IMG/VR virus record: IMGVR_UViG_2684622669_000002
Location: 1 to 10,992 of that record
Length of the DNA: 10,992 bases
Origin: a virus
Taxonomy: Duplodnaviria > Heunggongvirae > Uroviricota > Caudoviricetes
Direction: 5' to 3' (one strand)
Positions within the stretch are counted from its first letter, which is position 1. The number at the start of each line of letters is the position of its first letter. Shown here piece after piece: positions 1-10,992 of this stretch. The position numbers were made by a program, and so were the translations under genes. The notes beneath the pieces are model-generated. The model saw nothing but the letters and a program-made list of their open reading frames with translations. It made no database searches and had not been told where the DNA came from.

Positions 1-12
1 CCGCAGATGGTT
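1..12. promoter_or_regulatory. Partial OL3-like cI operator, truncated by the window edge
   Basis: Window starts 'ccgcagatggtt', which matches the right-hand part of the lambda-type 17-bp operator TATCACCGCAGATGGTT as I recall it. Position left of the cI operon is as expected for OL. Confidence 0.45.
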
Positions 13-155
13 ATCTGTATGTTTTTTATATGAATTTATTTTTTGCAGGGGTGCATTGTTTGGTAGGTGAGAGATCTGAATTGCTATGTTTAGTGAGTTG
101 TATCTATTAATTTTCAAATAAATACAATTGGTTATGTGTTTTTTTGGGGGGGTTA

Positions 156-186
156 GGCAAAGAAAACCCGGCACTGAGGCCGGGTT
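156..186 (-). terminator. Rho-independent terminator ending the cI-cassette operon (tImm-like)
   Basis: On the minus strand, an 8-bp perfect stem (AACCCGGC / GCCGGGTT, + coords 165-172 and 179-186) with a 6-nt loop is followed by TTTTCTTTG. It begins 6 nt after the stop of the 192..563 ORF. Confidence 0.7.
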
Positions 187-191
187 GTGTG

Positions 192-563
192 TTACTTAAG
201 AACGAGTCCGTTTAAGGCATCAAGGATTTTGGAAACATAACTTCCAAAAATGTAGGCGCAAAATGCGAACACGAAACTGACAACGACCGCAGATGCCTTA
301 ATGGTGGTTTTTGCTGAGCTAATGCTTGTCTCAATACCTGACAGACGAGAATCAACAGATTTTATATCTGACTTTACCTCAGCGAGATCGCGCTTGATGT
401 ATTCAACATCAGACTCTAGCTTTGCAACTCTAGCCTCAAGCATGTTACCTCCGCCGTTTCCTCCACCATGCCGTGAGTATGCATCATCAGTGGAATAGTG
501 TCCAATTGGGCGAGATATGTTTTGATTTGGACGAAGCTGAGCAACCTTGTTATCTAAACTCAT
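192..563 (-). CDS. Hypothetical 123-aa tail-anchored coiled-coil membrane protein; distal gene of the rexAB-slot cassette, candidate membrane effector
   Basis: ORF with ATG at 563-561 and an AGGA about 10 nt upstream. Translation shows a polar N-terminus, a Gly-rich linker (GGGNGGGN), a heptad-like segment (LEARVAKLESDVEYIKRDLAEVKSDIKSVDSRL) and one C-terminal hydrophobic helix (AVVVSFVFAFCAYIFGSYV). No family recognised. Confidence 0.6.
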   Translation of the reverse strand: MSLDNKVAQLRPNQNISRPIGHYSTDDAYSRHGGGNGGGNMLEARVAKLESDVEYIKRDLAEVKSDIKSVDSRLSGIETSISSAKTTIKASAVVVSFVFAFCAYIFGSYVSKILDALNGLVLK

Positions 564-987
564 CGCGAACTGATCCTGTTATCTTCACGTCAAAAAACGA
601 ACTTTTTACATCAATTACTTCGCCTTTCTCAGGATTAACCAGTGATGCTCTAACTTCGAATATCCCAGGCTTGATAATTTTCACCCTTGGGAAGTTAATT
701 CTCATAGAAGTTGATACGATGGTTTCTCCATCGTTGGCTTCTGCTACCGTAAAAAACTTATGGTTGGAGTACAGTTTTGTGTCAATTGGTATCGGTATTT
801 CTTGAGCATTGAAAACCTCAATGCCTATGGAATATTTTTTTGTAGCCTTAAGGCAGATAAAAAAAGCGCCAAATGACAGATCCACTTCATGGGAGTCTTT
901 ATCCATTTCATAGATAAGAACTGGAGTTACGTGGTTGCCTTCATCCATCGCAATTGGAATGATATAAGAAATACGTTCTTTAATCAT
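550..987 (-). CDS. Hypothetical 145-aa protein; proximal gene of the rexAB-slot cassette
   Basis: ORF begins 7 nt after the cI stop codon and overlaps the next ORF by 14 nt. No hydrophobic helix and no catalytic motif I recognise. Alternating hydrophobic pattern suggests a beta-rich fold. Confidence 0.6.
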   Translation of the reverse strand: MIKERISYIIPIAMDEGNHVTPVLIYEMDKDSHEVDLSFGAFFICLKATKKYSIGIEVFNAQEIPIPIDTKLYSNHKFFTVAEANDGETIVSTSMRINFPRVKIIKPGIFEVRASLVNPEKGEVIDVKSSFFDVKITGSVRDEFR

Positions 988-994
988 TTACGTG

Positions 995-1711
<717 letters not shown>

Positions 1712-1718
1712 TTAAATC

Positions 1719-1784
1719 TATCACCGCAAGGGATAAACTTCTAACACCGTGCGTGTTGACTATTTTACCTCTAGCGGTGATAAT
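1719..1784. promoter_or_regulatory. OR3-OR2-OR1 operator cluster with divergent PRM/PR promoters
   Basis: OR3 tatcaccgcaagggata (1719-1735), OR2 taacaccgtgcgtgttg (1742-1758), OR1 tacctctagcggtgata (1766-1782). PR -35 ttgact (1756-1761) and -10 gataat (1779-1784) with 17-nt spacing. cro RBS aggagg at 1799-1804. Confidence 0.85.
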
Positions 1785-1808
1785 GATTGCCTGTACTAAG
1801 GAGGTTGT

Positions 1809-2009
1809 ATGGAACAACGCATAACCCTGAAAGATTATGCAATACGCTTTGGCCAAACCAAGACGGCTAAAGATCTCGGCGTATATCAAAGCGCGATTAA
1901 CAAGGCCATTCATGCAGGCCGAAAGATTTTTTTAACTATAAACGCTGATGGAAGCGTTTATGCGGAAGAAATAAAGCCCTTCCCAAGTAACAAAAAAACA
2001 ACTGCATAA
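1809..2009 (+). CDS. cro: Cro repressor
   Basis: 66-aa translation [64 protein letters not shown] matches lambda Cro apart from a couple of conservative substitutions. Strong RBS; sits immediately right of OR1/PR. Confidence 0.95.
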
Positions 2010-2016
2010 GTAACAC

Positions 2017-2062
2017 CGCTCTTTTCACAATGGACATTCGTCCTACGTCGCTGACAAAGCGA
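2017..2062 (+). promoter_or_regulatory. nutR-like N-utilisation site: boxA plus boxB hairpin
   Basis: boxA-like cgctctttt at 2017-2025, just after the cro stop. Perfect 5-bp stem with pentaloop at 2048-2062 (TCGCT-GACAA-AGCGA). The loop differs from lambda boxB (GAAAA) and resembles the P22-type loop as I recall it. Confidence 0.5.
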
Positions 2063-2743: not shown

Positions 2744-3691
2744 ATGAGCAATACAGCAAAAATCTACGATTTCAGCGCCGCACACGAGCGCAGGAGCAAC
2801 AGGATGGAGAACCAGAAAACTGGTTACATTCCGTTGTACCGGAGCATTCTGAAACAGTCATGGGCGAAAGATGTTTATCTTCGCACCCTGTGGGAAAACC
2901 TTCTCCTGAATGCCGCCAGAAAGCCATACAAAGCGAATTTCAAAGGTCATGAATGGCATCTGCAACCCGGTCAACTGGTTGTGACAGCAGCTGATTTAGG
3001 TCTTCAGTTATGCGACAGGCATGGCAAGCCAGCAAGCCGCGATCAGGTTGAGCGGATGCTTCAGGTTTTTGTGAAAGAGGGGATGATCTCCATTGATGGA
3101 GAGAAGAAAAAAGGTCGTGTGATCACCATCACAAATTACCATGAATACGCTCAAAAAATGGACAATTTACCCGCACATGAAGCCGCACAAACAACCGCAC
3201 ATGATGCCGCACATGACGAAGCCAGTAACGGCGCGGCTTTCGGGGTACATGCCGCACATGAAAGCGCACATGAAGCCGCACAAACAACCGCACATCATGA
3301 ACAAGAAGGTATTAACAAGAATATAAATAATACCCCCCTACCCCCCAATGGGGGAGGCGATGGGCAGGTTAAACCTGAACGTCGCAAGGCAGAACGAATC
3401 GACTACGAATCCTTCCTGAACGCCTACAACACCGAAGTCGGTGACAGACTGCCACACGCTGTTGCGGTCAACGAGAAACGCAAACGCCGCCTGAAGAAAA
3501 TCATCCCGCAACTGAAAACGCCAAACGTGGACGGTTTCAGAGCGTATGTCAGGGCGTTTGTACATCAGGCCAAGCCGTTTTACTTCGGAGACAACGATAC
3601 TGGCTGGACGGCCGATTTTGATTACCTGCTGAGAGAAGATTCGTTAACGGGAGTTCGTGAAGGGAAGTTTGCAGACAGGGGGATTGCATGA
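2744..3691 (+). CDS. Replication initiator, O-like (N-terminal iteron-binding domain, repetitive linker, C-terminal domain)
   Basis: N-terminus [10 protein letters not shown]… resembles lambda O (MTNTAKILNF…). Iteron repeats lie inside the coding sequence, as in lambdoid O genes. Followed by a helicase gene with ATGA start/stop overlap. Confidence 0.85.
3169..3300. repeat. Origin iterons: about 8 copies of a CCGCACA(T/A)GA-type unit in two clusters, followed by an AT-rich segment
   Basis: Direct repeats visible at about 3170, 3182, 3195, 3206, 3250, 3263, 3275 and 3288. Followed by AT-rich 3301-3332 and a CCCCC-AAT-GGGGG hairpin at 3342-3354. Layout matches a lambdoid ori within the O gene. 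Confidence 0.7.
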
Positions 3692-5064
3692 AACAGGATA
3701 TCGAAGCGAGCGTTATCGGTGGCCTGCTGATTGGTGGATTAACACCAACTGCCAGTGACGTTCTGGCAACGCTGGAGCCGGAAGCGTTTTCAATTCCGCT
3801 CTACCGGAAAGCCTTCGAGGTTATCCGGAAGCAGGCGAGAAACAGAAACCTAATCGACGCGCTGATGGTTGCCGAGGCGTGCGGAGAGGAGCATTTCACG
3901 TCAATCCTGATGACCAGCAAAAACTGCCCGAGTGCCGCAAACCTGAAGGGATATGCCGGAATGGTCGCGGATAACTATCACCGCCGTCTGGTGCTGGAAA
4001 TCATGGATGAAATGCGTGAACCAATTCAGAGCGGAACCATCGACGCATCGAGTCAGGCGATGGACGAGCTTGTAAAGCGTCTTTCAGCCATCAGAAAGCC
4101 CCGTGACGAGGTTAAACCTGTACGGTTAGGGGAAATCATCACTGACTACACTGACACGCTTGACAGGCGTCTGAGGAACGGAGAAGAGTCAGATACCCTG
4201 AAGACCGGAATCGAAGAACTTGACGCCATCACCGGAGGGATGAACGCGGAAGACCTGGTGATTATCGCCGCTCGTCCTGGTATGGGGAAAACCGAACTGG
4301 CGCTGAAGATTGCCGAAGGCGTTGCAAGTCGTGTTATTCCTGGTTCTGACGTCCGGCGCGGGGTATTGATTTTCTCAATGGAAATGAGCGCATTGCAGAT
4401 TGCAGAGCGAAGCATTGCCAACGCCGGGAGGATGTCGGTTAGCGTACTGCGAAATCCTGCATCGATGGATGACGAGGGCTGGGCACGTGTTGCTAACGGC
4501 ATGAGTCAGCTTGCAGATTTGGATGTATGGGTAGTCGATGCTTCTCGGTTATCGGTCGAAGAAATACGCTCAATCGCAGAACGGCATAAGCAGGAAAATC
4601 CAAACCTGTCACTCATCATGGCGGATTATCTTGGCCTGATTGAGAAGCCGAAAGCAGACCGCAACGACCTCGCAATTGCTCACATCTCCGGAAGCCTGAA
4701 GGCGATGGCGAAAGACCTGAAAACGCCAGTTATCTCCCTGAGTCAGCTTTCGCGCGATGTTGAGAAGCGACCAAACAAACGCCCGACAAACGCAGATTTG
4801 CGTGATTCAGGAAGCATTGAGCAGGACGCAGACTCAATCATCATGCTCTATCGGGAAGCGGTATATGACGAGAACGGTAGCGCCGCGCCATTTGCTGAAA
4901 TCATCGTGACGAAAAACCGTTTTGGCTCGCTTGGTACGGTTTACCAGCGGTTCTGTAACGGACACTTTGTTGCATGTGACCAGGATGAAGCAAGACAGAT
5001 TTGCACAGCATCAAATGCACCTGCTGCGCGTGGCAGACGATATGCACAAGGGGCTGACGTATGA
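3688..5064 (+). CDS. DnaB-family replicative helicase (phage-encoded, P22 gp12-like)
   Basis: 458 aa. Walker A ARPGMGKT, DnaB-like motifs ([17 protein letters not shown]), N-terminal DnaB-type domain. Start overlaps the stop of the O-like gene. Confidence 0.9.
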
Positions 5065-8070: not shown

Positions 8071-8360
8071 TGGCTAACCTACGCAAAGAAGCACGCGGCA
8101 GAGAATGCCAGGTACGTATTTACGGCGTATGCAATGGCAATCCTGAAACTACAGTTCTGGCACATTACCGGATGGCTGGAATTTGCGGAACGGGAATGAA
8201 GCCTGACGACCTGATCGGTGCATGGGCTTGTAGTGCGTGTCACGATGAAATCGACCGACGCACCCATAATCTCGACAACAAAGACGCCAGACTTTACCAC
8301 CTCGAAGGCGTGATCAGAACGCAGGCGATACTGCTGAAGGAGGGGAAGATTAAGCCATGA
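8070..8360 (+). CDS. ybcO: YbcO-like protein (DUF1364, Cys/His-rich putative nuclease)
   Basis: 96-aa protein with CxxxxxC … CxxC-H motif. Resembles DLP12 prophage YbcO as recalled. Sits before rusA as in DLP12-type nin regions. Confidence 0.7.
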   Translation: MANLRKEARGRECQVRIYGVCNGNPETTVLAHYRMAGICGTGMKPDDLIGAWACSACHDEIDRRTHNLDNKDARLYHLEGVIRTQAILLKEGKIKP

Positions 8361-8881
8361 ACGGTAAAAGATATCCAACACAAAAAGAAATCAATGAATT
8401 GTATGAATATAATAGCGAAACAGGTTTGTTTATATACAAGAGAAGAGAAAGTGTAAGAGAGTGCTGGAATTCAACATATGCCGGTAAGATTGCTGGTTCT
8501 ATAGATGAAAAAGGATACGTTCGTATATCTGTAAATAAAAAAGTTTGTCGAGCTCATAGAATCGCATGGATATCCTTTTATGGAAGTGAACCTGATGGGG
8601 AAATTGACCACATAAATGGAATTAAAAGCGATAACAGAATATGCAATTTGCGCGTTGTAGATGATAAACAGAACTCAAGGAACAGAAAAAAGCCTATTAA
8701 TAATCGCTCTGGAGTAATTGGTGTTGCCTACTATAAGAAGAATAAAAAGTGGGGCGCATATATAAACAGTGATAATAAAAAGATATTTCTTGGATTATAC
8801 GATGACATATCTCTAGCCGTTAATGCCAGAAAATTGGCGGAATCACGATTGGGCTATCACCATAATCATGGGAGAGGATAA
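8357..8881 (+). CDS. HNH endonuclease with AP2-type DNA-binding domain (homing-endonuclease-like)
   Basis: HNH_3-type motif (EIDHINGIKSDNRICNLRVV) followed by an AP2-like segment (SGVIGVAYYKKNKKWGAYI). Codon usage is visibly AT-rich compared with flanking genes. Confidence 0.8.
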   Translation: MNGKRYPTQKEINELYEYNSETGLFIYKRRESVRECWNSTYAGKIAGSIDEKGYVRISVNKKVCRAHRIAWISFYGSEPDGEIDHINGIKSDNRICNLRVVDDKQNSRNRKKPINNRSGVIGVAYYKKNKKWGAYINSDNKKIFLGLYDDISLAVNARKLAESRLGYHHNHGRG

Positions 8882-10005: not shown

Positions 10006-10080
10006 GGGTCAGTCGTATAAAGGTCATTACGGAAGGCTGTTAACCTTCTTATCGTGGTTCGAGTCCACGCTGTCCCGCCA
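10006..10080 (+). tRNA. tRNA-like gene, anticodon GTT (Asn), CCA encoded
   Basis: Hand-folded cloverleaf. Acceptor gggtcag/ctgtccc with one T-T mismatch. Anticodon stem gaagg/ccttc with loop ctGTTaa. T-arm cgtgg-ttcgagt-ccacg. 3' gCCA. D-stem is only 3 bp. Confidence 0.5.
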
Positions 10081-10085
10081 AACAT

Positions 10086-10161
10086 GCTGGTTTAGCTCCA
10101 ATGGTAGAGCAGTCGCCTTGTAAGCGAATGGGTAGCGGTTCAAGTCCGTTAACCAGAACCA
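10086..10161 (+). tRNA. tRNA-like gene, anticodon TGT (Thr), CCA encoded
   Basis: Hand-folded cloverleaf. D-arm gctc-caatggta-gagc. Anticodon loop ctTGTaa. T-arm agcgg-ttcaagt-ccgtt. Acceptor gctggtt/aaccaga with a mismatch at the first pair. 3' aCCA. Confidence 0.55.
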
Positions 10162-10279: not shown

Positions 10280-10495
10280 ATGAAATCAATGGACAAAATC
10301 TCAACTGGCATTGCCTACGGAACATCTGCTGGTAGTGCGGGATACTGGTTTTTGCAGTGGTTGGATCAGGTCAGTCCGTCACAGTGGGCTGCGATTGGAG
10401 TGCTTGGAAGCCTTGTCTTGGGTTTTCTCACTTATCTGACAAATCTTTATTTCAAGATTAAAGAAGATAAGCGTAAGGCTGCGAGAGGTGAATAA
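10280..10495 (+). CDS. S: Phage-21-type pinholin S (dual-start MKSM motif)
   Basis: 71-aa translation [60 protein letters not shown]…KAARGE matches S21 as recalled. Two TM segments. GGAGG RBS 8 nt upstream. Confidence 0.95.
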
Positions 10496-10992
10496 TGTCG
10501 CCGTCATTACGCAAGGCTGTTGCAGCTGCTATTGGTGGTGGGGCTGTTGCCATAGCGTCTGTGCTCATCACTGGTCCAGGTGGTAACGATGGTCTGGAAG
10601 GTGTCAGCTACATACCATACAAAGATATCGTTGGCGTATGGACTGTATGTCACGGGCACACCGGAAAAGACATTATGCCCGGTAAAACGTATACCGAAGC
10701 AGAATGCAAAGCCCTCCTGAATAAAGACCTTGCCACGGTCGCCAGACAAATTAACCCGTACATCAAAGTCGATATACCGGAAACAACGCGCGGCGCTCTT
10801 TACTCGTTCGTTTACAACGTGGGCGCTGGTAATTTCAGAACATCGACGCTTCTTCGCAAAATAAACCAGGGTGATATCAAAGGCGCATGTGACCAGCTAC
10901 GTCGCTGGACATACGCTGGCGGTAAGCAATGGAAAGGGCTGATGACCCGTCGTGAGATTGAGCGTGAAGTCTGTTTGTGGGGGCAACAATGA
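10495..10992 (+). CDS. R: SAR endolysin R (phage-21-type lysozyme with N-terminal signal-anchor-release domain)
   Basis: 165 aa. N-terminal Gly/Ala-rich weakly hydrophobic SAR segment ([23 protein letters not shown]), then a T4-lysozyme-like catalytic domain. Start overlaps the holin stop (TAATG). Confidence 0.95.

What the first reader, a model, noticed from the sequence alone, without database searches (positions are those of the whole stretch)
550..987. Proximal cassette protein (145 aa) with no recognisable motif: possible sensor or regulator
It lacks hydrophobic helices, nucleotide-binding motifs or nuclease/protease signatures that I can see. Its alternating hydrophobic pattern suggests a compact beta-rich domain. 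Being first in the pair and translationally coupled to the membrane protein, it could be the trigger or sensor, or an antitoxin-like restraint, for the membrane protein.
Basis: inference. Interest (0 to 1): 0.55.

Follow-up and report, generated by a model that had tools for sequence, protein, structure and literature searches.

The report
Prophage beta-sandwich partner of membrane protein
The 145-aa gene is real and encodes a small cytoplasmic beta-sandwich protein that always travels with a tail-anchored membrane protein in the slot where phage lambda keeps its rexAB exclusion genes, so the pair is a good but untested candidate for a new prophage-encoded anti-phage system.

Summary
Window 550..987 (-) is a conserved 145-aa gene under purifying selection (dN/dS 0.11-0.23). 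It starts 7 nt after the lambda-type cI stop and overlaps the next gene (192..563) by 14 nt. AlphaFold gives a confident all-beta sandwich with no TM segment. Window 187..998, which holds the two genes, replaces lambda rexA-rexB between cI and the timm terminator.

The protein (S) is in PHROG 5893 (unknown function) and matches no Pfam, NCBIfam or PADLOC model directly. A broad profile links it to Pfam DUF6941 (hhalign 93.8%).

In every locus found from the S side, S is followed by a tail-anchored coiled-coil membrane protein (M). In the 54 loci of the close family the pair also sits downstream of prophage repressors of many immunity types.

S identity tracks the disordered N-terminal peptide of M (Spearman 0.79). 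It does not track M's coiled-coil/TM part (-0.02), which is swapped at a Gly-rich linker. Other prophages carry a zinc-ribbon protein in place of S. Bacillota phages A403 and StB12 have a DUF6941-type protein plus a tail-anchored protein.

Best reading (inferred, about 0.45): S docks on M's N-terminal peptide and gates a membrane-damaging effector in a RexAB-like exclusion module. Sensor versus antitoxin-like restraint is unresolved. No phenotype is known.

The parts
995..1708 (-). Lambda-type cI repressor (HTH_3 + Peptidase_S24), the first gene of the operon that carries the cassette.
   Evidence: Pfam S24 E 7e-29 and HTH_3 E 2.6e-11. Window 999-2023 is 96.9% identical to lambda cI-cro.
550..987 (-). 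S, the finding itself: a 145-aa cytoplasmic beta-sandwich protein, PHROG 5893, a remote DUF6941 relative. Its ATG lies 7 nt after the cI stop.
550..563 (-). 14-nt overlap between the end of S (..DEFR*) and the start of M (MSLDN..). It is the site of translational coupling. The dual coding may also explain the conserved C-terminal tail of S.
   Evidence: An overlap or near-abutment is kept in all homologous loci.
192..563 (-). M: a 123-aa tail-anchored membrane protein, PHROG 6136, with sub-threshold XhlA-like similarity.
468..563 (-). M residues 1-32: the N-terminal peptide (MSLDNKVAQLRPNQNISRPIGHYSTDDAYSRH). It is predicted disordered and co-varies with S, so it is the proposed docking site for S.
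   Evidence: pLDDT below 50 over much of residues 1-24, with block means of 46-51 for residues 1-40. Spearman 0.79 with S identity, Mantel p <= 5e-4.
447..467 (-). M residues 33-39, GGGNGGG: a Gly-rich linker that serves as the recombination joint between the S/N-peptide unit and the effector unit.
   Evidence: Alignment A2. Unique pairs are listed.
297..443 (-). M residues 41-89: a heptad-rich helix (coiled coil) that carries the sub-threshold XhlA match.
   Evidence: Pfam XhlA E 2.4e-4, 21.6 bits against GA 34.7, residues 42-95. Helix 41-122 in the AF2 model.
234..296 (-). M residues 90-110: the single C-terminal transmembrane segment, followed by a 13-aa tail (SKILDALNGLVLK) encoded at 195-233.
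   Evidence: KD19 maximum 2.1 at residue 92. Highly conserved in A2.
165..186 (-). Intrinsic terminator directly after M. It lies in the flank that is homologous to lambda up to the rexB stop, and I identify it as timm from my own knowledge.
   Evidence: 8-bp stem, 6 GC, T-run. Window 1-186 is 93% identical to lambda 35640-35826.
1..186 (.). Lambda-homologous left flank, from OL3 to the rexB stop. It marks the left boundary of the cassette swap: window 187-998 replaces lambda rexB-rexA.

Best explanation
Window 550..987 encodes S, the soluble cytoplasmic subunit of a conserved two-gene module expressed from the prophage.

Shown:
- S is a roughly 16-kDa beta-sandwich, remotely related to DUF6941.
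- It is co-transcribed and translationally coupled with cI upstream and with M downstream.
- M is a tail-anchored protein built of a disordered N-terminal peptide, a Gly-rich linker, a coiled coil and one C-terminal TM segment.
- The pair replaces rexA-rexB.

Inferred:
- S binds the N-terminal peptide of M and so controls whether M's coiled-coil/TM part assembles into a membrane-damaging, holin- or XhlA-like form.
- In a lysogen the complex is silent. Infection by another phage changes the S-M interaction, because a phage product either titrates or modifies S or is bound by it. M then permeabilises or depolarises the inner membrane and the infection aborts.
- This is the logic proposed for RexA/RexB, carried out by unrelated proteins.
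- The gene order (soluble partner first, overlapping the membrane gene) and the tight S/N-peptide co-variation make me lean slightly towards S being a restraint that also serves as the sensor, rather than a pure activator.
For: Position. Window 1-186 and 999-2023 match lambda on either side of rexB-rexA, so window 187-998 fills that slot between cI and the terminator. The epsilon34 genome paper drew the same positional analogy for gp45/gp44 (PMC2629481). The cI-N interval is a recognised mosaic hotspot that holds the abortive-infection systems RexAB and BstA (PMC8585504).

Obligate pairing. In all 54 loci found with S as query, an M homologue starts at or inside the end of S, and the pair follows HTH+S24 repressors of many different sequences. 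Two remote S subfamilies searched from the S side gave 12 loci, most on contigs already retrieved through M, and all 12 have M downstream.

Modularity. Across 32 unique pairs, S identity correlates with identity of M's N-terminal 30 aa (Spearman 0.79, Mantel p <= 5e-4). It does not correlate with M's coiled-coil/TM part (-0.02). There are 14 comparisons with the same S but a different effector, 59 with the same effector but a different S, and no exception to the S/N-peptide linkage.

Variable soluble part, conserved effector. The XhlA-like effector is also found behind diverged S homologues (hmmsearch E from 1e-15 to 5e-4; hhalign 94%) or behind an unrelated 2xCxxC zinc-ribbon protein.

Deep conservation of the architecture. 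In Anoxybacillus phage A403, a bona fide DUF6941 protein is followed at a 1-nt overlap by a coiled-coil tail-anchored protein, in the lysogeny module. Staphylococcus phage StB12 gp73/gp74 have the same arrangement.

Structure. S is a confident all-beta model with no catalytic-family match, which fits a binding module. M residues 1-40 are predicted disordered and residues 41-122 helical.
Against: No phenotype exists. No paper in the searchable library mentions these proteins, DUF6941, or an XhlA-like protein acting in defence.

Neither protein matches any of the 5027 PADLOC models. That argues against a known system and gives no support for defence.

The S/N-peptide co-variation could come from physical adjacency plus recombination at the conserved Gly-linker DNA, without any protein-protein contact.

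The XhlA similarity is below Pfam's threshold and may only reflect coiled-coil composition. M's membrane toxicity is assumed, not shown.

The remote S homologues were mostly found through M, so pairing at that depth is partly by construction. The exact cassette is rare: 16 of 5426 complete E. coli genomes hold most of it.
Confidence: 0.45

Rival explanations
1. Toxin-antitoxin-like addiction or stabilisation module. M is a membrane toxin and S is its protein antitoxin. The pair stabilises the prophage or its repressor operon and does not sense incoming phages.
For: The soluble gene comes first and overlaps the membrane gene, which is the classic order for a type II antitoxin and toxin. S co-varies with a peptide of M, as cognate antitoxin-toxin interfaces do. 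Pairing is strict.
Against: S has no DNA-binding domain and the operon is driven by the repressor's own promoter, so the usual autoregulation is missing. S is a well-folded beta-sandwich, not the labile, partly disordered type of antitoxin. The pattern of variable soluble partners (beta-sandwich or zinc ribbon) on one conserved effector resembles sensor diversification more than addiction. Many toxin-antitoxin modules also act in defence, so this rival overlaps the best explanation.
Confidence: 0.15
2. Superinfection exclusion at the envelope. M sits in the inner membrane and blocks DNA entry by incoming phages, as SieA, Sie2009, T4 Imm or HK97 gp15 do. S acts as its cytoplasmic chaperone or insertion factor.
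For: The pair is expressed from the prophage and lies next to the repressor. In phage A403 it lies between the repressor and the integrase. My own knowledge is that lactococcal Sie2009-type injection blockers occupy such a slot. M is a small membrane protein.
Against: Nearly all of M (about 90 of 123 residues) is cytoplasmic and only about 13 residues follow the TM segment, which leaves little surface for meeting an injection apparatus. The known injection blockers I am aware of work as single membrane proteins. A hypervariable cytoplasmic partner is not expected for that role.
Confidence: 0.12
3. Regulator of the prophage's own development. The XhlA-like M acts with the phage holin to time or assist lysis after induction, or the pair biases the switch between lysogeny and lytic growth as proposed for RexA/RexB. 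S is its inhibitor during lysogeny.
For: M is annotated as XhlA-like. From my own knowledge, Pfam XhlA derives from a lysis-cassette protein of B. subtilis prophage PBSX. In StB12 the pair lies just after the holin and endolysin genes. RexA/RexB have a documented role in the lysogenic-to-lytic transition (abstracts of bioRxiv 10.1101/2021.04.19.439022 and PMC11077077).
Against: In this window and in the 54 close-family loci the pair sits directly downstream of the repressor gene. In lambda that operon is expressed in lysogens from PRM and shut off on induction, the opposite of a lysis gene. The window has its own holin and lysozyme genes far away, at 10280-10992. The XhlA match is below threshold.
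Confidence: 0.12
4. Lysogenic-conversion factor that acts on host physiology, for example a membrane stress, stationary-phase or virulence function, and has nothing to do with phages.
For: Morons at this kind of site can encode host-fitness factors. The cassette occurs in pathogenic strains such as EPEC E2348/69. From my own knowledge, tail-anchored coiled-coil inner-membrane proteins such as ElaB and YqjD act in stationary-phase physiology.
Against: The module occurs in phages of very different hosts (Enterobacterales, Anoxybacillus, Staphylococcus), which argues for a phage-centred function rather than a host-niche one. Sequence turnover of the soluble partner is high.
Confidence: 0.08

Closest known systems
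Phage lambda RexA/RexB exclusion system
   Same: Same genomic slot: between the cI stop and the terminator that precedes OL, in the repressor operon. Same two-gene logic, with a soluble protein encoded first and a small inner-membrane protein second. The proposed working is also the same: a cytoplasmic component controls a membrane effector.
   Different: There is no sequence relationship: hhalign probability is 0.1% against RexA and 0.4% against RexB, and PADLOC gives no hit. S is a 145-aa beta-sandwich, whereas RexA is a 279-aa DNA-binding protein (PMC11077077 abstract). M has one C-terminal TM segment plus a coiled coil, whereas RexB (144 aa) is, from my own knowledge, a four-TM protein. 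The genes overlap here and abut cI, whereas in lambda they are spaced. The T4 rII exclusion phenotype was not tested.
Salmonella phage epsilon34 gp45/gp44 (also g341c and NM-3); PHROG 5893 and PHROG 6136
   Same: True homologues. gp45 is 72% identical to S over 145 aa, and gp44 is 42% identical to M with a conserved N-terminal peptide. The position downstream of the prophage repressor is the same.
   Different: The repressor is of a different immunity type, and the coiled-coil/TM part of the membrane protein is a different variant. Neither protein has been characterised. The 2008 genome paper noted only the rexAB-like position.
Pfam DUF6941 (PF22091), e.g. Anoxybacillus phage A403 AVO22623 and Staphylococcus phage StB12 gp73
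   Same: Similar size (about 130-145 aa) and an all-beta fold (Foldseek E 9e-9, TM 0.65-0.69). The broad S-family profile aligns to the A403 protein over 106 columns starting at the shared N-terminal 'I-S/A-Y/F-h-h-P' strand (hhalign 93.8%, E 1.8e-7). The same kind of downstream partner follows, a coiled-coil tail-anchored protein, at a moron or lysogeny site of a temperate phage.
   Different: S itself does not hit the DUF6941 model, and the narrow S profile does not align to the A403 protein. The hosts are Bacillota. The downstream proteins share architecture with M but have no detectable sequence similarity to it. DUF6941 has no known function.
XhlA family (PF10779)
   Same: M has the same architecture, an N-terminal coiled coil plus one C-terminal TM segment. 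Thirteen of 15 M homologues hit the model at E < 0.01, and NCBI names them 'hemolysin XhlA (family)'.
   Different: All hits are below the gathering score: 21.6 bits against 34.7 for the window protein. M carries an extra disordered N-terminal peptide and a Gly linker. It is encoded in the repressor operon rather than in a lysis cassette.
Mycobacteriophage two-gene prophage defences next to the immunity repressor (Butters gp30/gp31, Sbash gp30/gp31)
   Same: Prophage-expressed gene pairs that defend against heterotypic phages (PMC7542560 and PMC6426596, abstracts). From my own knowledge they lie near the repressor and combine a cytoplasmic protein with a membrane protein.
   Different: I compared no sequences directly. 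They differ in host phylum and, from my own knowledge, in membrane-protein topology. PADLOC gave no hit.

Membership tests
Lambda RexAB | The soluble component is homologous to RexA. | tested here: not met
   hhalign of the broad S profile A4 against lambda RexA gives probability 0.1%. No PADLOC hit.
Lambda RexAB | The membrane component is homologous to RexB (a polytopic membrane protein). | tested here: not met
   hhalign of A2 against lambda RexB gives probability 0.4%. M has a single C-terminal TM segment.
Lambda RexAB | Location in the cI operon, between cI and the terminator upstream of OL. | tested here: met
   blastn against lambda: both flanks are homologous, and window 187-998 replaces lambda 35826-37230. 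Terminator at 165-186.
Lambda RexAB | Exclusion of T4 rII and other phages through membrane depolarisation. | not testable with these tools
   Needs infection assays.
PHROG 5893 | Full-length match to the family HMM. | tested here: met
   E 8.8e-64, residues 1-140 against profile positions 1-140 of 140.
Pfam DUF6941 (PF22091) | Score at or above the gathering threshold (27 bits). | tested here: not met
   No hit for S or any of the 21 A1 members at E <= 1. One remote S homologue scores 15 bits, E 0.031.
Pfam DUF6941 (PF22091) | Remote homology and shared fold with a bona fide member. | tested here: inconclusive
   The A403 protein is a member at 29.3 bits. The broad profile A4 aligns to it at 93.8%, E 1.8e-7, and Foldseek gives E 9e-9 with TM 0.65-0.69. 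The narrow profile A1 gives nothing.
Pfam XhlA (PF10779), for the partner M | Score at or above the gathering threshold (34.7 bits). | tested here: not met
   21.6 bits, E 2.4e-4. Thirteen of 15 homologues match only below threshold, best E 8.3e-6.
Type II toxin-antitoxin | The antitoxin gene comes first and overlaps the toxin gene. | tested here: met
   S is upstream with a 14-nt overlap.
Type II toxin-antitoxin | The antitoxin has a DNA-binding domain and autoregulates its own promoter. | tested here: not met
   S is an all-beta sandwich with no HTH, RHH or AbrB match. It starts 7 nt after the cI stop, and no promoter-like site was found in between.
Type II toxin-antitoxin | The toxin is toxic alone and is neutralised by the cognate antitoxin. 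| not testable with these tools
   Needs expression experiments.
Known and candidate anti-phage systems (PADLOC-DB v2.0.0) | A match to any of the 5027 models. | tested here: not met
   S has no hit at E <= 10. M's best hit is E 0.0046 to a CorA-like model. Remote S homologues, zinc-ribbon partners and a remote M have no hit better than E 0.076. Databases newer than 2023, and Brenes & Laub 2025, could not be consulted.

The most novel reading that the evidence does not exclude
S and M may be founding members of an unrecognised, modular family of prophage-encoded abortive-infection systems found in both Proteobacteria and Bacillota phages. In this reading, a small swappable cytoplasmic sensor (a DUF6941-type beta-sandwich, or alternatively a zinc-ribbon protein) clamps the disordered N-terminal peptide of a tail-anchored coiled-coil pore-former. 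New specificities would arise by recombination at the Gly-rich linker that joins the sensor-docking peptide to the effector.
Probability: 0.35. Interest if true: 0.75.

Novelty: new variant of a known kind. Interest (0 to 1): 0.6.

Why it matters
If the module is a defence system, it would do three things.

- It would give a first function to DUF6941-like proteins and to the many 'hemolysin XhlA family' genes annotated in enterobacterial prophages.
- It would add a system that is genetically very compact (about 0.8 kb) and naturally modular to the set of repressor-linked prophage defences, alongside RexAB and BstA.
- It would offer a tractable model of how a soluble sensor gates a membrane effector, a question still open for RexAB after more than 60 years (PMC8585504).

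The natural chimeras make specificity-swap experiments straightforward: the same sensor occurs with different effectors, and the same effector with different sensors. If the module is not defensive, it is still a conserved, lysogen-expressed membrane module of unknown role, present in pathogens such as EPEC E2348/69.

Tried and rejected
- **Direct family assignment of S.** Pfam, NCBIfam, PADLOC and PDB-sequence searches gave nothing significant. The weak DotH/IcmK and NUP210 Ig hits are below threshold and were rejected as generic beta-sandwich noise.
- **Exhaustive phmmer over 1.84 billion representatives.** Only 5 hits, so S alone looked like a tiny family. The wider family emerged only through the partner gene and profile-profile comparison.
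- **Complex prediction.** M alone gave a low-confidence model, pLDDT 61.9.
- **afdb50 fold library.** Not available.
- **Literature.** Accession numbers, XhlA with anti-phage terms, and DUF6941 all found nothing relevant. The most relevant screen, Brenes & Laub 2025 in Cell Host Microbe, is not held.
- **Species-representative genome scan.** Only one locus, in Dryocola.
- **Wider DUF6941 context.** Pattern-based scans from A403/StB12 returned only the same phages. The broad alignment A4 was too divergent to seed a scan.
- **Homology to RexA or RexB.** Rejected.
- **A known RNA element overlapping the gene.** None; Rfam finds only two tRNAs elsewhere in the window.
- **The antisense 110-aa ORF at 473..805 (+).** I regard it as a by-product of the real genes on the other strand. 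This rests on the conservation and purifying selection of the minus-strand genes and was not tested directly.
Full report
**1. What is in the window**

The window is the immunity and early-right region of a lambdoid prophage.
- ORF 995..1708 (-) is a lambda-type CI repressor: Peptidase_S24 E 7e-29 and HTH_3 E 2.6e-11, with about 97% nucleotide identity to lambda cI.
- It is followed rightwards by cro and cII.
- Further right come an O-like replication protein, a DnaB-type helicase, NinB, Dam, NinX, a KilAC antirepressor, YbcO, an HNH endonuclease, RusA and Q.
- Then come two tRNAs and the start of the lysis genes.

**2. The observation**

The finding's ORF is at exactly 550..987 (-), 145 aa.
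- Its ATG lies 7 nt after the cI stop codon (TAA-CACGTAA-ATG).
- Its last 14 nt overlap the start of the 123-aa ORF at 192..563 (-), and an AGGA lies 10 nt upstream of that ATG.
- A terminator hairpin at 165-186 follows the second gene.

blastn against lambda shows that window 1-186 equals lambda 35640-35826, from OL3 to the rexB stop, at 93% identity. Window 999-2023 equals lambda cI-cro at 97%. Window 187-998, which holds the two genes, therefore replaces rexB-rexA.

The ORF is a real gene.
- It matches PHROG 5893 over its full length (E 8.8e-64).
- It has 20 homologous protein clusters at 44-97% identity.
- It is under purifying selection, with dN/dS of 0.11-0.23.
- It has no hydrophobic segment (maximum KD19 0.93) and no hit to a catalytic or nucleotide-binding family.
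- AlphaFold2 with the family alignment gives a confident all-beta model: pLDDT 86.6, pTM 0.81, eight strands.

**3. What the protein (S) is**

An exhaustive phmmer search of 1.84 billion representatives found only five relatives, so the close family is narrow. It is confined to Enterobacterales prophages and to Salmonella phages epsilon34, g341c and NM-3. Most of the exact cassette is present in 16 of 5426 complete E. coli genomes, including EPEC E2348/69.

The best viral structural matches were uncharacterised phage proteins. One is Anoxybacillus phage A403 AVO22623, which is a bona fide member of Pfam DUF6941 (29.3 bits against a gathering score of 27).
- The narrow S profile does not align to it.
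- A broad profile built from S and its remote relatives does: hhalign 93.8%, E 1.8e-7, 106 columns in register from the shared N-terminal strand motif.

S is therefore best described as a remote relative of DUF6941. That family has no known function and no literature.

**4. The partner (M)**

The 123-aa protein has four parts:
- a hydrophilic N-terminal peptide, residues 1-32;
- a GGGNGGG linker, residues 33-39;
- a heptad-rich helix, residues 41-89;
- one TM segment, residues 90-110, followed by a 13-aa tail.

AF2 predicts residues 1-40 as disordered and residues 41-122 as a single helix, at low overall confidence. M matches PHROG 6136. It hits Pfam XhlA only below threshold, at 21.6 bits against 34.7. 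Thirteen of 15 homologues do likewise, and NCBI labels them 'hemolysin XhlA (family)'.

**5. Comparative genomics: the main new evidence**

(a) Pairing. In all 54 loci retrieved with S as query, an M homologue starts at or inside the end of S. The loci are one Dryocola genome, 53 viral contigs, plus the epsilon34 and E2348/69 records. In every one that I inspected, the pair lies directly downstream of an HTH+S24 repressor. These repressors have at least eight clearly different sequences, so the module moves between immunity types.

(b) Wider family found through M. Searching with M found many more 'XhlA-like' proteins. Their coiled-coil/TM part is highly conserved and their N-terminal roughly 35 residues are hypervariable. 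Their upstream neighbour falls into one of two classes.
- Class A is a diverged S homologue. hmmsearch gives E from 1e-15 to 5e-4, and the Enterobacter Rac-like example aligns at hhalign 94%.
- Class B is an unrelated protein of about 105-130 aa with two CxxC motifs, a zinc-ribbon type.

(c) Co-variation. Across 32 unique pairs (496 comparisons):
- S identity against identity of M's N-terminal 30 residues gives Spearman 0.79, Mantel p <= 5e-4;
- S identity against M's C-terminal part gives -0.02, p 0.59;
- 14 comparisons have at least 90% identical S but less than 40% identical effector;
- 59 comparisons have less than 35% identical S but at least 70% identical effector;
- none breaks the S/N-peptide linkage.

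The joint is the Gly-rich linker. A further locus found from the S side (L138) repeats the pattern.

(d) Bacillota phages. In phage A403 the DUF6941 protein is followed, at a 1-nt overlap, by a 184-aa protein with a coiled coil and a C-terminal TM segment. The pair lies in the lysogeny module, between the repressor region and the integrase. In Staphylococcus phage StB12, gp73 is 35% identical to the N-terminal half of the A403 protein. It is followed 2 nt later by gp74, which has the same architecture. The pairing of a beta-sandwich with a tail-anchored coiled-coil protein thus recurs in phages of distant hosts. The Bacillota membrane proteins show no sequence similarity to M.

**6. How it most likely works**

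Shown:
- S and M form an obligate, translationally coupled pair in the repressor operon.
- S is a soluble binding-type fold.
- M is a tail-anchored coiled-coil protein.
- The unit of inheritance is S plus M's N-peptide, separate from the effector.

Inferred:
- S binds M's N-terminal peptide and controls assembly of the coiled-coil/TM part into a membrane-damaging form.
- The module protects lysogens from other phages by abortive infection, which is the logic proposed for RexA/RexB.

Variable soluble partners on one conserved effector fit what I know of sensor diversification in defence systems. I put about 0.45 on this overall, made up roughly as follows: pairing and shared function about 0.95, direct S/N-peptide binding about 0.65, and an anti-phage role about 0.5.

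Whether S is a restraint, a trigger or both is open. The gene order and overlap make me lean slightly towards a restraint that also serves as the sensor.

Main caveats:
- The co-variation could reflect adjacency plus recombination at the conserved linker DNA.
- No complex prediction could be run.
- There is no phenotype.
- The XhlA link is below threshold.
- Pairing among the remote homologues is partly by construction, because most were found through M.

**7. Rivals**

| Rival | Confidence |
|---|---|
| Pure toxin-antitoxin or addiction module | 0.15 |
| Envelope-level superinfection exclusion | 0.12 |
| Regulator of the prophage's own lysis or switch | 0.12 |
| Host-physiology conversion factor | 0.08 |

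Each has its evidence and refutation test in the Rival explanations section.

**8. Comparison with what is known**

The module works like RexAB in position and in two-component logic, but it is not a member. hhalign gives 0.1% against RexA and 0.4% against RexB, and the membrane topology differs. It is homologous to epsilon34 gp45/gp44. The 2008 genome paper noted that those genes sit like rexA/rexB and had no database matches (PMC2629481). The cI-N interval is a recognised mosaic hotspot that also carries BstA (PMC8585504).

The module matches no PADLOC v2 model. I could not consult defence catalogues newer than 2023 or the Brenes & Laub 2025 prophage screen, so prior naming cannot be fully excluded.

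**9. Verdict**

The link to the membrane protein is strongly supported and now has a specific proposed interface. The sensor or antitoxin role and the exclusion phenotype remain inferences.
- Novelty: a new variant of a known kind, that is, a repressor-linked two-component exclusion-type cassette built from unrelated proteins.
- Interest: 0.6. It is a well-defined, compact and naturally modular candidate system with clear experiments, but its function is unproven.

Noticed in passing
L083, L105, L106, L108, L109, L112, L113, L115, L116, L118-L121, L129 (gene immediately upstream of the XhlA-like gene): In many prophages the XhlA-like tail-anchored protein is preceded not by a beta-sandwich protein but by an unrelated protein of about 105-130 aa with two CxxC motifs (zinc-ribbon type). 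It has only sub-threshold Pfam zinc-ribbon hits and no significant PADLOC hit (best E 0.076). It looks like an alternative 'sensor' module for the same effector.
   Followed up: partly
L132 (Anoxybacillus phage A403, MG969427) 35864-36822; L133 (Staphylococcus phage StB12) 3495-4303: Temperate phages of Bacillota carry a DUF6941-type protein directly followed by a coiled-coil tail-anchored membrane protein, at lysogeny or moron sites. The architecture matches the window's pair.
   Followed up: partly
L005 vs L006, L031 vs L056, L137 vs L138: These are natural chimeras. S and M's N-terminal peptide are nearly identical, but the coiled-coil/TM halves of M are entirely different, with the switch at the GGGNGGG linker. 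At least five effector variants exist, and all keep the plan of a coiled coil plus one C-terminal TM segment.
   Followed up: yes
L004 (Dryocola sp. BD626) 3576-3971: An extra 131-aa ORF with an N-terminal hydrophobic segment sits between the repressor and the S homologue. It is absent from the other loci.
   Followed up: no
L127/L128 (Providencia) 3523-4369: Here the pair of an S-like protein (161 aa) and an XhlA-like protein is not next to a CI-type repressor. It lies in the tail or baseplate region of a myovirus-like prophage, beside a divergently oriented Arc-family gene.
   Followed up: no
window 138-145 and 934-987: The conserved C-terminal tail of S (G-x-x-R-D/N-E-F-R, residues 138-145; mean pLDDT 57 over residues 141-145) coincides with the 14-nt overlap that encodes the start of M. 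Its conservation may come from dual coding rather than from a function in S.
   Followed up: no
window 10006-10161 (+): tRNA-Asn(GTT) and tRNA-Thr(TGT) lie between the Q antiterminator gene and the holin gene.
   Followed up: partly
window 3171-3295 (+): Two arrays of a 12-nt repeat (CCGCACATGAAG/A) lie inside the O-like replication gene and encode a His/Ala-rich stretch. This is probably the iteron-type origin, as in lambda O.
   Followed up: partly
window 8357-8881 (+): An HNH_3 endonuclease ORF lies in a low-GC patch (0.38, against about 0.47 on either side) between the YbcO-like and RusA genes. It looks like an inserted homing-endonuclease-type moron.
   Followed up: partly
window 152-194 vs E. 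coli genomes (hits H52-H60): Thirty-nine E. coli genomes match in the 90-95% identity band. The nine listed match only the terminator and the last codons of M, under genes annotated 'hypothetical protein' or 'CCDC90 family protein'. Other cassettes may use the same terminator-proximal end in this slot.
   Followed up: no
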